Of a DNA stretch of 64,000 nucleotides, positions 44,301 to 50,300 are shown one piece after another. The stretch lies in the NCBI RefSeq assembly GCF_022846255.1, contig NZ_AP025682.1; one strand, 5' to 3'. How positions within the stretch are numbered: position 1 is the stretch's first letter; the number at the start of each line of letters is the position of its first letter. The DNA comes from Escherichia coli. Its GTDB lineage: Bacteria > Pseudomonadota > Gammaproteobacteria > Enterobacterales > Enterobacteriaceae. Position numbers: made by a program.

Positions 44301-47300
44301 CCTTGTTCTGCCAGAGTCTGGCGAACAGAGGTAATTAGATATGGATCGATAGTACTGCTCTGGTCATCAGGTAAATGTCTTTCAGACATATCAGCTCCTT
44401 TGCACGGAAATAATGCCACAGTCACAACAAACCCGAACCCACTATAATTTATTTATGCTAAATCAATGGGTTGTAACAAAATTTTTAATGAATATAAAAC
44501 CATGGTCAGTCCATGCTTATATGCAGGACTTATCACCTTCTTATTAAGTCGCAATGTCTCATGGAGGTGCGAAGATGCTGCAATATTACAGGCGAGAAGG
44601 GGAACCAAATTTTGCCCACCTATTTAACACACCCCTACATTATGAACAAGGAATTTAGGATTTTTATCATTTATTAAAATGTTTCCCACTTGACTATTAA
44701 GACCAAAAACAATTTATCAATTGATTATTTCCTTGTAAAAAAAGAACGTATAACTATGTTATTAATAAATAAAACACGCAAATAATGGTGATGTTGTTTT
44801 GTGATTAACTATTTAAGTGTGGCATAATAAACAGGTTGACAATTTCCATGTAAAGAAGAGGAAAATAATAAAATTTTAACGGTGACTATTGAATGATATG
44901 ATAGTTGTGGTGTTGATTATTTCTGGTAATAAATGCGGAATTAAATCTGGCCGGATTGTATTTTTGCTATATCTATTTTTCAGGAGATTATTATTAAATA
45001 GAAAAATAACAATGGTGATTATCTCCGGTTGAGCTGGAGTCACGTATGCCAGCGAGTGCTTTCTTCCGGGCCTTCCTTCACTTCAGAGAAAGAGCCTATG
45101 GAAAAGAGGCAATCATCAGGCTCTTTTTGAGTCATATGCGCCGATAATCAACTGTCTTGAACGTAAAAATTATGGAGCAACATGATGCTACGATTCATTT
45201 CACTCTTCGTTCTTTCTGAGCATTGCGTTCAGGATGGTCAGCAATTTACGCATACAGTCAACCAGCGCCACTTTTTGGGTTTTTCCGGCTGCTGGCAGAT
45301 GCATGTAAAACGCCTTTATCACCGGATTAAACCAGGTTACCACAAGCGCTGCCATGTGCAGGGCTGCTCTTGCCTCCGTACGCGCACTGGCGTCGTTCGG
45401 CCAGCAGATATGTGTGGGATAACAGGGATGTTATGTGAACTGAACTGTGTTTTGTTAGCGGGGGATGTTTATTGATGATTCGGGAGTGTTTAAGACCTGA
45501 TGGCGTTATGCTCCCAAGTTTATTTTATATAAAGATCCAAAAGCAAAAACCCGCCTTGTGGGCGGGTTCTTAAGAATTAGTGGTGCCGGACTCGGAATCG
45601 AAAATTTCTTTTATCATATTGATATTAATGCAATTTGTTTGGTTTGATTAAAAATGTACCCTCAATTATACCCGCAGTCCCTTTTGATATCGAAAGGGAA
45701 TCACACTCGGGATCAGGCTGATAGCACAGAAGGAAAGTACCTGGCTATTATATCGTTAATTCTGTCAATCAGTTCCAGCCTTTTGAAAGTGATGTGTGCA
45801 GATCCCTTCTTAAAGTATTTAATGATGAACATCTCGTCTTCATAGCGCTCTTTACCCTGAACGGACTGGATGTGACCATCCAGACGAATAGTGATGTTTT
45901 CCCGGTTGTCGGGGATCGGTTTGCCGCTGAACAGATGTAGCATTCTTTCCAGGTCGACGAGTCGGTCAGTCTGTTGCCCGGTGATAAGATGAAACCCCCA
46001 CCGGTCCCACCTCACCAGGTTGTTGACGATAATTTTACTGCCAAATTTGCAGGGGCAATTGGTTTTGTAATTCCAGCTCAGTCCCCTGAAGACGTTGATC
46101 ACCCCTCGCTCAAACACCTCATCCTTATTCTGGTGTAGTTGTTCAAATGTGATCAGAATGTTCGCTTCACTGATTTCCGGAAAATTATCGTACTCCAGTG
46201 ACCGGTACCATGTATCACGGGCCTGTGCATCCATTAAGGAAAGCATCCCTGAACGTTGCATCAGGTCACGCCAGATTTCGCGATCGAGATTGCGTGTGAT
46301 GGCTTTCATTGCGGTTTCCGGTTTCTCCATCAGCCAGCAGCCGCAGCGAAAATCCTGTTTCATGGCCCAGCCCGGGGCGGCTTTACCGCCAATACTTTCT
46401 GTCATTGCTGATATTTCAGCCAGTTGCCGGATAAGTGTGTCGATTTGCAGCAGTGTACTCTTTCGTACAGCCAGAATGTGGCGGATACTGGTTGAGCAGA
46501 TAACGTCCGTATGCCCGGTGACCACTTCCGGACGGGAGATTGTGATGTCTGACATTATCGGTTTCCCTTTTGGTTTATAAACGAAAACGCCAGCCCTGTT
46601 CAGGCTGACGTCAGTGGAATGAAGTATGGTGAGTGATATTTACCGGTTCTGGTGCAGAAGCTGCAGGTGACGAAGAGTACGGACATCCTCCCGGGCCTGT
46701 TCGATACAGGGCAACAGTGCTGCCGAATCCGTTTTATCCTCATCGTTGTCAAAGATAATTCCCGATTCGCAGTCGATATTGTCCTGCAGCCACGCAATGA
46801 GGATATCCAGCGCTGTTTCAGTGGTTAATGGCATCACGCTCTGTATCACTGTATTGTCTTCCGGCAACTGATGAGGACTGGCAGAAGTCGCCGGTGTTTC
46901 GGTAGCGTCACGTTCATCCACCACGCGGAGTGAATAACCGTTTTCAGCGACCTTGTTAATCAGTTCAATGAGATTAACACCATCGACGTCAACGACAATT
47001 CGCCCCATGTTCAGCGCCTGCACGTTAACGCTGTCGGCTTCCAGCGTCAGGGCCAGTTTCATTGTTTCGCCTCCGGATGCTTACCCAGAGTAATGTTATT
47101 TACTGTTCGGTAATTGTCGCGGGTCATCAGGCCGGTCGCCCTGCGAGCCCGGAGGATATCGATGCTGTTTATTAACTGAGAGCGGGTACAGGCGCTGAAT
47201 CCCGGCTGGTCGGTACGCACCAGCGCGTATTTTTCCACGAGAAAGTTCACCGCATCACACAGTGAAATGCCTGCCTCAATATGCTGCTCAATCACACGTT

Positions 47301-50300
47301 CATCAGCGAACGGTGTGTCATTCAGTGTGAGGCCGTAATGCTGGTCCAGCAGTCGGGTGAGCAGTGTATGCCAGATGGTGACGGGAGACGGGCAGCACGA
47401 TGCCTCCCGTACGTGTGTGTCAGGTAATGTTTTCATCTTAAGTTCTCTGTAACTGGTAGTGCTAAAGGTGAGATATTCGGGGTTATGAGGTGGTTGCGGG
47501 TGCCAGTGTCGGATAAACAGCCATATAAACGTAACCACAGGAGCCGAGGGTGTCGGCTTCACAGGCCAGCCCCTTCGCATACAGTGTCACGGTATGCTGA
47601 TGGCGGGGATTCAGTTCACCGCTGGTGAGCATGAGCTCCAGTTGTTTCATCAGCAGCGGAAAGGCCTGGTCCAGGTGGTACGCATCTGCATCGCTGAACA
47701 GGCCTCTGATACCGGCGCGGTCGGCAAGGTAATGCAACCGGTTACCCTCCTGCACCAGACGTGCCCCGAAACAGGGCGTCACGGTGCAGGGCAGCCCCCA
47801 CCAGGGGCGGTCGTGATTGTCGTCGGGAAGTGTTGTCCCGGGGAGTGTGTCTGACACGATAAAATCCTCACAGAAAATCGGTTAAGAATGGTCCGGTAGT
47901 GGCGATAATTCTGCTCATCAGAATGCCCTGACTCAGTTCAGGGTGACACTCATCAGGCGGACATACGGGCCAAAACTGTCCTTACGGCGTTCAGCAAACA
48001 CGGCAAGAACGCCGGGAATATCCTGCACTTCACGACCGGTATACGCTTCAGCGCTGCCGTGCCAGCGGTACTTACCGGTACAGAACGGAAAAAGACGGGA
48101 TGCAGGATGCTGTTGGTGAATACGCATGGCTTCACCACGGGTGATAATTTTCATGATGGGATACCTCTGAAGACAGAAGATAAAAGTGAAAACAAGTGTG
48201 ATGTAGTTGTGACGGGTTAAAGCAGACCGTGTTCCGCAAAGGAGAAAACCTGGTTGCCACCGACTATCAGATGGTCCGGCACCCGGATATCCACCAGGGC
48301 CAGTGCCTGTACCAGACGTTCGGTGATAAGCCGGTCTGCCTTACTGGGTGTGACTTCACCGGACGGGTGATTGTGTGCCAGCACCACGGCAGCGGCATTG
48401 TGATACAGGGCGCGTTTAATCACTTCCCGGGGATGGACTTCCGTGCGGTTGATGGTGCCGGTGAAGAGGGTTTCACCGGCAATCAGCTGATTCTGGTTGT
48501 TCAGATACAGCACCCGGAATTCTTCACGCTCCAGTCCCGCCATGTTCAGAATCAGCCATTCCCGTGCCGCATGCGTGGAGGTGAAGGCCACGCCGGGTTC
48601 ATGAAGATGGCGGTCCAGGGTTTTCAGGGCCCGCTGAATGAGGCTGCGCTCACCGGGCGTCATTTCTCCGGGCAGAAAGGAAATCTGTTGCATTGTTCCG
48701 GCCCCTTTCAGTCAATGATGCGCATAATGGCGCTGCATTCCGGATGTTGCAGGGCGTAATCCCGCAGCCGGTAATAGTGGACCGTCATGGCATAACACTC
48801 CGTACGACAGGCATGATGGCTGTACGCCATCAGACAGGCGGCAATGCCGGCAGCTTCCGGGCTCATTTCAGCGCGGTTACCGTTCATGGCATTGAACAGT
48901 ATCCAGGTTTCTCCATCATCTTCATCCGGTTCAGGTGCTATAAATGCGCCACCGTTGTTCAGGGTGTACAGATTCCAGATACCCCCGCAGTAGTCTTCAC
49001 ACAGACGGTCCATCCAGCCGAAGACACGGGGCTCCAGGGTCACCCACTGTGGAATGAGGCCAAAGTGCTGCGGCCAGAAGCTGATGCGCTGTTCATCAGG
49101 GACGGGAGTGGCAACCAGCTGAGGTGGGTTATTCCCTGATGCAGTAGTTACGGAAACAGAAGATGTGGTGGAATTATGCGCAGAGGTTGTCATGAGATTA
49201 TTCCTTATAAAAAGCAAATGAATGGAAGAATGCCCGGGGGAAGGGACAGCCGTGAGTCAGAACTGCGCTTTCAGGGAAACGGCATCAGCGCATACTCTCC
49301 AGCAGTGTTTCTGCCATCACCCACAACGCCCGGTTGAGCTTAATGTCGGTGTCGATGCTGTGAATGGCACGGGTATGGATACGTTTTCCTTTTGCACTGC
49401 GACCGGAAATCCCGCCTTTCAGCATATTCTCCTGGATGGTCTGATATGCGCTCCACAGGTCCTTACCGTAATCTTCCCGGCGTCGTGGTGTCAGAATGTC
49501 GGCAGTGGTGACGGGCTGATGTTCATCGCCATAACGGTAAGTCAGTGCCGCCTGTGCCAGCGCCTGACGTGCCGGTGGCGGCAGAACCAGAGACTGCATG
49601 GCATCACGCTTTTCCTCAATCCGGTCAAAAACGCCCACTACCTCGTAAGCCCCTTCAATAACTTTCTCCACCACGTCTCCCCGGTGTGGAACACGCACTT
49701 CCCCCAGAGACAGACCACAGACGCAGCCGTTCTGGCAGACGAACCTGAAGTAACCCGGCAGCATCTGGTAGCTGGAGGTACCGTCATGGGAGTTCAGCAG
49801 GATGATTTCAGGGACATGTTGTCCGTTTCTCTCCCCGTCACGGCGCAGACGCAGCATGTGTTTGGTGTATCCCCGGCGGCTCTGGTCGCGCACGCGGGTC
49901 TGGCAGGCGAAGAATGGCTGAAAACCTTCCCGCTGCAGGCTTTCCAGTACGGTGATGGTGGGAATGTACGCATACCGTTCACTGCGGGAGGTATGCCGGT
50001 CTTCCCCAAAAATACTGGGTACATAGTGCATCAGTTCTTCATGTGTCAGCGGACGGTCACGGCGTATCTGGTTTACATGACCAAAACGACTTGCTAATCG
50101 CATGATTTGCTCCTTATGAATGAGTTAGCGGTATAAATGAAAAAGCTGCGTCTCCCGGAGAAGACGCGGCCTGACAAATGAAATGAATGACGTTTATTGT
50201 CTGAGAAGCCCTTCACTGGCGAGCTGCGTATTTTTATGGAAGGAGATCACCCAATAACCCCATCGGGATCCGGTAATAACCGGCCAGACTGTGATCGATT

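What the first reader, a model, noticed from the sequence alone, without database searches (positions are those of the whole stretch)
45713..50103. CP4-type accessory module with a type IV toxin-antitoxin pair at the island tip
The order yeeW-like / cbtA-like / cbeA-like / yeeT-like / radC-like / antirestriction / DUF932-like is complete with no frameshifts, so the toxin-antitoxin pair and antirestriction function are probably active. The first gene inside the att core (45713-46555) has unknown function.
Basis: established knowledge. Interest (0 to 1): 0.25.

Follow-up and report, generated by a model that had tools for sequence, protein, structure and literature searches.

The report
Known E. 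coli island-end toxin–antitoxin module
This is the well-known accessory gene block (antirestriction protein, RadC-like protease, CbeA/CbtA toxin–antitoxin pair and neighbours) at the far end of a pheV-inserted genomic island of Escherichia coli; it is intact but ordinary, found in most E. coli genomes.

Summary
On the minus strand of 45713-50103 lie eight co-oriented genes. A 22-nt copy of the 3' end of tRNA-Phe (pheV) at 45581-45602, followed by 48 nt of native pheV flank, marks the island end 110 nt beyond the last gene.

Seven genes are full length. One correction: the YeeW-like ORF lacks the C-terminal domain of full-length DUF5983 proteins. RefSeq marks this allele as a pseudogene.

CbtA is 89.5% identical to K-12 CbtA and keeps F65. 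CbeA is 96% identical. The antirestriction protein is about 95% identical to the solved, in-vivo-active ArdB of CFT073. dN/dS is 0.03-0.42 for seven of the eight genes; for the short DUF957 part it is uninformative (0.89 on 6 differences).

The exact CbtA, CbeA and DUF4942 proteins each occur on at least 1000 public contigs, and 1213 of 5426 complete E. coli genomes hold the whole block.

DUF4942 remains of unknown function. It is the non-catalytic N-terminal module of some phage and mobile-element DNA methyltransferases.

Verdict: already known, low interest.

The parts
45581..45602 (-). att core: 22-nt direct-repeat copy of the 3' end of tRNA-Phe (pheV), one G short; marks the distal island boundary
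   Evidence: Exact pattern match, none expected by chance. Aligned with K-12 pheV.
45533..45580 (-). 48 nt identical to the native sequence downstream of K-12 pheV, including the pheV terminator hairpin (45544-45572)
   Evidence: Alignment A1; terminator scan.
45713..46555 (-). DUF4942 protein, 280 aa; first gene inside the island boundary; function unknown
46586..46612 (-). Terminator-like hairpin between the DUF957 stop and the DUF4942 start; a promoter-like site follows at 46581-46554
   Evidence: Consensus scan only; function not shown.
46640..47062 (-). YeeW-like 140-aa ORF: DUF5983 N-terminal domain (aa 4-57), a YeeW-like linker, then the DUF957 reading frame (46640-46837) fused in frame. 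It lacks the DUF5983 C-terminal domain. Its start overlaps the cbtA stop (ATGA).
   Evidence: Pfam DUF5983_N, E 8.6e-29, with no hit to PF19419. DNA alignment with the full-length allele of strain 144. PGAP marks the same allele as a pseudogene fragment plus DUF957. 84% identical to K-12 YeeW. The exact 140-aa protein is on 563 contigs. The junction is present in 3694 of 5426 genomes.
47059..47436 (-). cbtA-family toxin, 125 aa
   Evidence: Pfam PF06755, E 4.9e-63, profile positions 1-112 of 112. 89.5% identical to K-12 CbtA. F65 kept, residue 15 is Cys. The exact protein is on at least 1000 contigs.
47483..47857 (-). cbeA-family antitoxin, 124 aa, GTG start as in K-12
   Evidence: Pfam PF06154, E 5.9e-54. 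95.7% identical to K-12 CbeA over 117 aa. PDB 2INW and 2H28 (YeeU), E about 1e-79.
47933..48154 (-). DUF987 protein (YeeT-like), 73 aa
   Evidence: Pfam PF06174, E 5.4e-40. 98.6% identical to K-12 YeeT.
48217..48693 (-). RadC-like JAB/JAMM domain protein (YeeS/YkfG/LfgB-like), 158 aa
   Evidence: Pfam PF04002, E 2.8e-45. JAMM motif HNHPSGEVTPSKAD at residue 107. 98.6% identical to YeeS and 78% to LfgB.
48708..49193 (-). ArdB/KlcA-family antirestriction protein, 161 aa from the ATG (the mechanical ORF starts at a TTG at 49217)
   Evidence: Pfam PF03230, E 6.5e-36. PDB 2WJ9 (ArdB of CFT073), E 2.7e-95, about 95% identical over aa 24-161. 68% identical to YafX and YfjX.
49285..50103 (-). DUF932 protein (YafZ/YfjQ-like), 272 aa
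   Evidence: Pfam PF06067, E 1e-49. 74% identical to K-12 YafZ and YfjQ.

Best explanation
This is the conserved distal accessory block of a tRNA-Phe (pheV)-inserted genomic island of an extraintestinal-type E. coli. It is the same gene set as the ends of K-12 cryptic elements CP4-44, CP4-6 and CP4-57.

The eight co-oriented genes are closely spaced, with gaps of -4 to 91 nt. They are probably transcribed largely as one unit, as shown for the K-12 yfjXY-ypjJ-yfjZF operon.

Inferred workings, by homology to tested proteins:
- CbtA binds FtsZ (through a surface that includes F65) and MreB. This blocks division and elongation and gives lemon-shaped cells.
- CbeA, encoded just upstream, neutralises CbtA without binding it, by bundling and stabilising FtsZ and MreB filaments. 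This is the type IV mechanism.
- The ArdB protein blocks type I restriction in vivo.
- The RadC-like protein is a JAMM metalloprotease. Its K-12 paralog LfgB cleaves antitoxin MqsA.
- DUF932, DUF987, the truncated YeeW-DUF957 ORF and DUF4942 have no tested function.

Shown here: family membership, intact reading frames, conserved motifs, purifying selection and the island boundary. Inferred: activity, co-transcription, and a role in establishing or stabilising the island.
For: Families: Pfam hits with E 1e-29 to 1e-66 for all eight ORFs, and RefSeq annotation of near-identical loci.

Boundary: the pheV 3' repeat and native flank.

Synteny: matches K-12 CP4-44, CP4-6 and CP4-57.

Similarity to tested proteins:
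- CbtA 89.5%, CbeA 95.7%, YeeT 98.6% and YeeS 98.6%.
- About 95% to ArdB_CFT073, PDB 2WJ9. That protein, together with YafX and YfjX, inhibits four type I RM families in vivo (PMC2836571).

Motifs: F65 and the JAMM motif are kept. The role of F65 and the action of CbeA are described in PMC5624674. YkfI/YafW and YpjF/YfjZ were tested in PMC5371832. LfgB is shown to be a protease in an operon in PMC10846083.

Selection: pairwise dN/dS is 0.03-0.42 for seven of the eight genes against two or three diverged copies.

Distribution:
- Exact CbtA, CbeA and DUF4942 proteins on at least 1000 contigs each.
- The block covers at least 80% of the query in 1213 of 5426 complete E. coli genomes, with a median of 3 related places per genome.
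Against: - No expression or phenotype data exist for this allele.
- CbtA residue 15 is Cys. R15C abolishes MreB binding in K-12 CbtA (PMC5624674). However, YkfI and YpjF naturally carry C15 and still produce lemon-shaped cells.
- The yeeW-like gene is domain-deleted and is annotated as a pseudogene by PGAP, so the block is not wholly pristine.
- DUF957 gives dN/dS 0.89, but on only 6 differences.
- The promoter and terminator calls are consensus matches only. A terminator-like hairpin precedes DUF4942, so an eight-gene operon is unproven.
Confidence: 0.88

Rival explanations
1. The block is a decaying, functionally inert remnant. The reading frames are open only because the copy is recent or because gene conversion from paralogous copies keeps repairing it; the toxin-antitoxin and antirestriction activities are not used.
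For: - The YeeW-like gene has lost its C-terminal domain.
- An IS110 remnant lies next to the boundary.
- A 1.2-kb patch (47900-49100) differs by about 6% from an otherwise 99.9% identical strain and matches other loci at 99%. This indicates gene conversion among the several copies per genome.
- In K-12 these elements are called cryptic.
Against: - dN/dS is 0.03-0.42 for seven of the eight genes even against copies with dS above 1.
- All catalytic and interaction motifs are kept.
- Identical proteins occur on at least 1000 contigs.
- K-12 paralogs are demonstrably active when expressed (PMC5371832, PMC2836571, PMC10846083).
Confidence: 0.1
2. The CbtA allele here is a single-target toxin that acts on FtsZ only. 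It would cause filamentation rather than lemon-shaped cells, because its N-terminal segment, including residue 15, differs from K-12 CbtA.
For: - Twelve of the 13 differences from K-12 CbtA lie in residues 6-27, and position 15 is Cys.
- R15C in K-12 CbtA disrupts MreB binding and yields filaments (PMC5624674).
Against: - YpjF and YkfI have C15 naturally, still give lemon-shaped cells, and YpjF binds MreB. The reverse change C15R had no effect in either, so position 15 is context dependent (PMC5624674).
- The divergent stretch is one contiguous DNA patch across the cbeA 3' end and the cbtA 5' end. In it the window allele resembles the family consensus.
Confidence: 0.2
3. The block is mainly an entry or establishment (anti-defence) cassette of a mobilisable island, like the leading regions of conjugative plasmids, rather than a prophage remnant. 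ArdB, the RadC-like protease, DUF932 and DUF4942 would act on recipient defences, and the toxin-antitoxin pair would provide post-segregational retention.
For: - ArdB is a proven antirestriction protein (PMC2836571).
- The block is virtually absent from 50,697 phage records, with a single 3.2-kb fragment found.
- It occurs on some conjugative plasmids.
- DUF4942 is the N-terminal module of phage and mobile-element DNA methyltransferases.
Against: - No PADLOC hits, and no anti-defence assay exists for any member other than ArdB.
- No transfer genes were examined in this window.
- The roles of DUF932, DUF987 and DUF4942 are untested.
- This reading overlaps with the main explanation rather than excluding it.
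Confidence: 0.35

Closest known systems
K-12 cryptic element CP4-44: flu-yeeR-yeeS-yeeT-cbeA-cbtA-yeeW
   Same: Same order and orientation from Ag43 to YeeW, including the IsrC RNA and a YeeP-like GTPase upstream. Identities are YeeS 98.6%, YeeT 98.6%, CbeA 95.7%, CbtA 89.5% and YeeW 84%. The cbtA stop overlaps the yeeW start in both.
   Different: - The window has DUF932 and ArdB where K-12 has yeeR.
- The window keeps DUF957 and DUF4942 downstream, whereas K-12 is deleted after YeeW.
- The window block is inserted at pheV rather than at the CP4-44 site.
- The CbtA N-terminus (aa 6-27) and the CbeA C-terminus (aa 98-122) differ as one DNA patch.
K-12 CP4-6 (yafZ...yafX-ykfG-ykfH-yafW-ykfI) and CP4-57 (yfjQ...lfgA-lfgB-ypjJ-yfjZ-ypjF)
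   Same: Same families in the same order: DUF932, ArdB, RadC/JAB, DUF987, antitoxin, toxin. These also lie at the element end next to a tRNA or att site.
   Different: - Only 59-82% protein identity.
- The K-12 toxins and antitoxins are shorter (105-113 aa).
- K-12 has extra genes between DUF932 and ArdB.
- K-12 has no YeeW, DUF957 or DUF4942.
ArdB of E. coli CFT073 PAI II (PDB 2WJ9)
   Same: About 95% identical over residues 24-161. It comes from a pathogenicity island of a uropathogenic strain and is active against type I restriction in vivo (PMC2836571).
   Different: The N-terminal 23 residues diverge. Activity of this allele has not been tested.
pheV island distal end in E. coli strains 82.0311 and 82.0312 (NZ_CP122454, NZ_CP122451)
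   Same: Same locus and same gene order between kpsF and Ag43. Identity is 98.3% over 6.1 kb and 99.8-99.9% over the next 14 kb. The short DUF5983-DUF957 allele is the same.
   Different: A 1.2-kb patch over DUF987, RadC and ArdB is about 6% diverged.

Membership tests
CbtA/CbeA type IV toxin-antitoxin system | Toxin belongs to the CbtA_toxin family (PF06755) at full length | tested here: met
   E 4.9e-63, profile positions 1-112 of 112; 89.5% identical to K-12 CbtA.
CbtA/CbeA type IV toxin-antitoxin system | Antitoxin belongs to the CbeA/YeeU family (PF06154) and is encoded immediately upstream on the same strand | tested here: met
   E 5.9e-54; the cbeA stop at 47483 and the cbtA start at 47436 leave a 46-nt gap; PDB YeeU 2H28, E 2e-78.
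CbtA/CbeA type IV toxin-antitoxin system | FtsZ-interaction determinant F65 conserved | tested here: met
   F at position 65; its role is shown in PMC5624674.
CbtA/CbeA type IV toxin-antitoxin system | MreB-interaction determinant R15 of K-12 CbtA | tested here: not met
   Residue 15 is Cys. This is not a family-wide feature: YkfI and YpjF also have C15 (PMC5624674).
CbtA/CbeA type IV toxin-antitoxin system | Toxin arrests growth and changes cell shape; antitoxin rescues without binding the toxin | not testable with these tools
   Requires expression, rescue and interaction assays.
ArdB/KlcA antirestriction proteins | Antirestrict domain (PF03230) and close similarity to a tested member | tested here: met
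   E 6.5e-36; 2WJ9, E 2.7e-95, about 95% identity.
ArdB/KlcA antirestriction proteins | Relief of type I restriction in vivo | not testable with these tools
   Shown for ArdB_CFT, YafX and YfjX in PMC2836571, but not for this allele.
RadC-like JAB (JAMM) proteins | RadC domain with the H-x-H-x7-S-x2-D metal-binding motif | tested here: met
   PF04002, E 2.8e-45; HNHPSGEVTPSKAD at residue 107.
DUF5983 (YeeW) family | Both the N-terminal (PF25638) and C-terminal (PF19419) domains present, as in the 162-aa protein | tested here: not met
   Only the N domain is found. About 270 nt are missing relative to strain 144. K-12 YeeW is likewise N-domain only.
tRNA-inserted integrative island (CP4 / P4-like type) | Direct repeat of the tRNA 3' end at the distal boundary | tested here: met
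   A 22-nt pheV repeat plus native flank.
tRNA-inserted integrative island (CP4 / P4-like type) | Intact tRNA gene and a P4-type integrase at the proximal boundary | not tested
   There is no tRNA gene in the window; the island runs beyond position 64000.

The most novel reading that the evidence does not exclude
Two untested genes at the tip could be active parts of the module rather than passengers.

(i) The 140-aa in-frame fusion of the DUF5983 N-domain to DUF957 is translationally coupled to cbtA and present in about two thirds of E. coli genomes. It might act as a third component that modulates the toxin.

(ii) The stand-alone DUF4942 protein has a fold with no solved relative, and in other elements it forms the N-terminal module of phage and mobile-element DNA methyltransferases. 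It might act on host restriction-modification or methylation as an anti-defence factor.
Probability: 0.1. Interest if true: 0.4.

Novelty: already known. Interest (0 to 1): 0.1.

Why it matters
It matters little beyond correct annotation. The block is a routine marker of the distal end of tRNA-inserted islands in E. coli. The CbtA/CbeA pair and ArdB have been studied in K-12 and CFT073.

The useful outcomes here are:
- A precise island boundary (45602/45603).
- The correction that the YeeW-like gene is a domain-deleted fusion allele.
- The note that DUF4942, a very common protein with no known function or solved fold, is linked by domain fusion to mobile-element DNA methyltransferases.

Tried and rejected
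- PADLOC defence models: no hit for any of the eight proteins.
- NCBIfam: hits only for RadC, a sub-threshold TIGR03299 match for DUF932 (E 0.0066) and the IS110 remnant.
- Rfam on 43000-55000: nothing within the block. The only hit above threshold is IS102/IsrC upstream of Ag43; the two other hits are sub-threshold.
- PDB sequence searches for DUF4942, CbtA and the YeeW-DUF957 ORF: no hits.
- Pfam for the DUF957 segment: no model in this Pfam copy. The name rests on RefSeq annotation only.
- A second copy of the module in the window: none found by tblastn.
- Long plus-strand ORFs antisense to DUF932, RadC and DUF4942 (291, 176 and 161 aa): judged likely artefacts of the GC-rich coding strand opposite. 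This was not tested by any search.
- Context of distant DUF4942 homologs: only two loci were read, which is too few for a guilt-by-association argument.
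Full report
**What is there**

The minus strand of 45713-50103 carries eight co-oriented ORFs. Each matches one Pfam family far above its curated threshold:

| Gene product | Coordinates | Length | Pfam E-value |
|---|---|---|---|
| DUF932 | 49285-50103 | 272 aa | 1e-49 |
| Antirestriction (ArdB/KlcA family) | 48708-49193 | 161 aa from the ATG | 6.5e-36 |
| RadC-like JAB | 48217-48693 | 158 aa | 2.8e-45 |
| DUF987 | 47933-48154 | 73 aa | 5.4e-40 |
| CbeA antitoxin | 47483-47857 | 124 aa, GTG start as in K-12 | 5.9e-54 |
| CbtA toxin | 47059-47436 | 125 aa | 4.9e-63 |
| DUF5983_N / YeeW-like | 46640-47062 | 140 aa | 8.6e-29 |
| DUF4942 | 45713-46555 | 280 aa | 1.2e-65 |

There is only one copy of the module in the window. 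Spacing is tight, with gaps of 91, 14, 62, 75, 46, -4 and 84 nt, and most starts are preceded by a Shine-Dalgarno-like sequence.

**Island boundary**

Window 45581-45602 (-) reads TTCGATTCCGAGTCCGGCACCA. This is the last 23 nt of K-12 pheV with one G missing. The following 48 nt, including the pheV terminator hairpin, are identical to the sequence downstream of pheV in K-12.

The island therefore ends at 45602/45603, 110 nt beyond the DUF4942 stop codon. Beyond it lie an IS110-family transposase C-terminal remnant (45200-45355) and the kps capsule genes kpsF and kpsE. No tRNA gene is in the window, so pheV and the integrase must lie beyond position 64000.

**Comparison with known elements**

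K-12 CP4-44 has the order yeeP-isrC-flu-yeeR-yeeS-yeeT-cbeA-cbtA-yeeW. The window has a YeeP-like GTPase (53650-54585), the IsrC/IS102 RNA (53296-53532), Ag43 (50431-53352), and then the block. DUF932 and ArdB sit where K-12 has yeeR, and those two genes are arranged as in CP4-6 and CP4-57.

Protein identities:
- YeeS 98.6%, YeeT 98.6%, CbeA 95.7% over 117 aa, CbtA 89.5%, YeeW 84%.
- 59-82% to the CP4-6 and CP4-57 paralogs.

The antirestriction protein is about 95% identical over residues 24-161 to PDB 2WJ9, the ArdB of CFT073 PAI II.

**Distribution**

- 5383 of 5426 complete E. coli genomes have a match to 44400-50500. Of these, 1213 hold at least 80% of it in one place, and the median is three places per genome.
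- The exact CbtA, CbeA and DUF4942 proteins are each on at least 1000 public contigs, and the exact 140-aa ORF is on 563.
- The block is nearly absent from phage records (one 3.2-kb fragment among 50,697) and rare on plasmids (26 of 72,556).
- A published survey reports multi-copy CbtA in ST73, ST95 and ST131, with DUF5983 as its usual downstream neighbour (PMC10790755).

**Correction to 'complete with no frameshifts'**

Seven genes have exactly the lengths annotated by RefSeq in the closest genomes. The yeeW-like ORF does not.

Full-length DUF5983 proteins have 162 aa, with N- and C-terminal domains (PF25638 and PF19419), and are followed by a separate 65-aa DUF957 gene (strain 144). In the window about 270 nt are missing. 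The C-terminal domain is replaced by a short linker that K-12 YeeW also carries, and the frame runs on without a stop into DUF957. PGAP annotates the identical allele in strains 82.0311 and 82.0312 as 'DUF5983, incomplete' plus a GTG-initiated DUF957 gene.

This short junction is present in 3694 of 5426 genomes. It is therefore an old, common allele rather than a private lesion.

**Is the module likely active?**

- Pairwise Nei-Gojobori dN/dS against the strain 144 copy, CP4-44 and CP4-6 is 0.03-0.42 for seven genes. DUF957 gives 0.89, but on only 6 differences.
- CbtA keeps F65, the FtsZ-contact residue. Residue 15 is Cys rather than Arg. R15C abolishes MreB binding in K-12 CbtA, but YkfI and YpjF have C15 naturally and still give lemon-shaped cells (PMC5624674).
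- Twelve of the 13 CbtA differences from K-12 lie in aa 6-27, and all CbeA differences lie in aa 98-122. These regions adjoin in the DNA, so this is one patch spanning the cbeA/cbtA junction. Within it the window allele resembles the family consensus.
- RadC keeps the JAMM motif HNHPSGEVTPSKAD.

Tested relatives:
- CbtA, YkfI and YpjF are toxic, and their antitoxins rescue (PMC5624674, PMC5371832).
- CbeA is reported to act by bundling FtsZ and MreB rather than by binding the toxin (as summarised in PMC5624674).
- ArdB_CFT, YafX and YfjX relieve four type I restriction families in vivo (PMC2836571).
- LfgB (YfjY) is a protease encoded in the yfjXY-ypjJ-yfjZF operon (PMC10846083).

**The gene of unknown function (DUF4942)**

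- It has 2038 homolog clusters at E <= 1e-3, most of them 255-300 aa.
- A few 460-470-aa homologs add a C-terminal class I SAM methyltransferase domain. One of these sits in a phage-like contig.
- It aligns to the N-terminal part of phrog_6263, 'DNA methyltransferase'.
- An AlphaFold model built from 66 sequences is confident (pLDDT 88.4, pTM 0.81). It shows a helical N-terminal half and a mixed alpha/beta C-terminal half.
- The best viral match is the N-terminal part of a 531-aa protein labelled as a type I restriction enzyme.

It is thus not itself a Rossmann-type methyltransferase. It is a non-catalytic module that some mobile-element methyltransferases carry. Its function remains unknown.

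A terminator-like hairpin (46586-46612) and a promoter-like site (46581-46554) precede it. These are consensus matches only.

**Mosaicism**

The window is 99.8-99.9% identical to strains 82.0311 and 82.0312 over 50000-64000 but only 98.3% over 44400-50500. The differences cluster in two places:
- 44700-45700, the non-coding region with the IS remnant.
- 47900-49100, covering DUF987, RadC and ArdB, which is about 6% diverged.

That second patch finds 99.0% matches at other chromosomal positions in other strains. This fits gene conversion among the several paralogous modules per genome.

**Verdict**

Everything here is already known and annotated in hundreds to thousands of genomes, so interest is low.

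Noticed in passing
window 47900-49100: A 1.2-kb patch over DUF987, RadC and ArdB is about 6% diverged from strains that are otherwise 99.9% identical nearby. Its best matches (99.0%) lie at other chromosomal positions in other strains. This suggests gene conversion among paralogous island modules.
   Followed up: partly
window 45200-45355 (-): C-terminal remnant (about 51 aa) of an IS110-family transposase, just outside the island boundary, between the pheV flank and kpsF. RefSeq annotates the same remnant as a partial pseudogene in related strains.
   Followed up: partly
window 53296-53532 (-): Rfam IS102 RNA match (70.7 bits, above the gathering score) upstream of the Ag43 gene, in the position that the sRNA isrC holds in K-12 between yeeP and flu.
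   Followed up: no
window 63206-63351: Tandem repeat array (periods 6, 13, 26 and 39; a perfect TCTACC x7 core) in a low-GC stretch. A mechanical 96-aa ORF across it encodes a (GR)n run. Not examined further.
   Followed up: no
L008 3574-4980; proteins P0069, P0081, P0135: Distant DUF4942 homologs of 460-470 aa carry a C-terminal class I SAM methyltransferase domain. One lies in a phage-like contig of small ORFs. This links DUF4942 to mobile-element DNA methyltransferases.
   Followed up: partly
window 45665-45693 (-): Promoter-like site (TCGATA-17-TATAAT, 10 of 12 matches) between the DUF4942 stop and the att core, pointing outward across the island boundary. Possibly a chance match.
   Followed up: no
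window 32000-37000: Very low GC (about 29-34%) inside the kps capsule cluster, consistent with the serotype-specific region 2. The capsule type was not determined.
   Followed up: no
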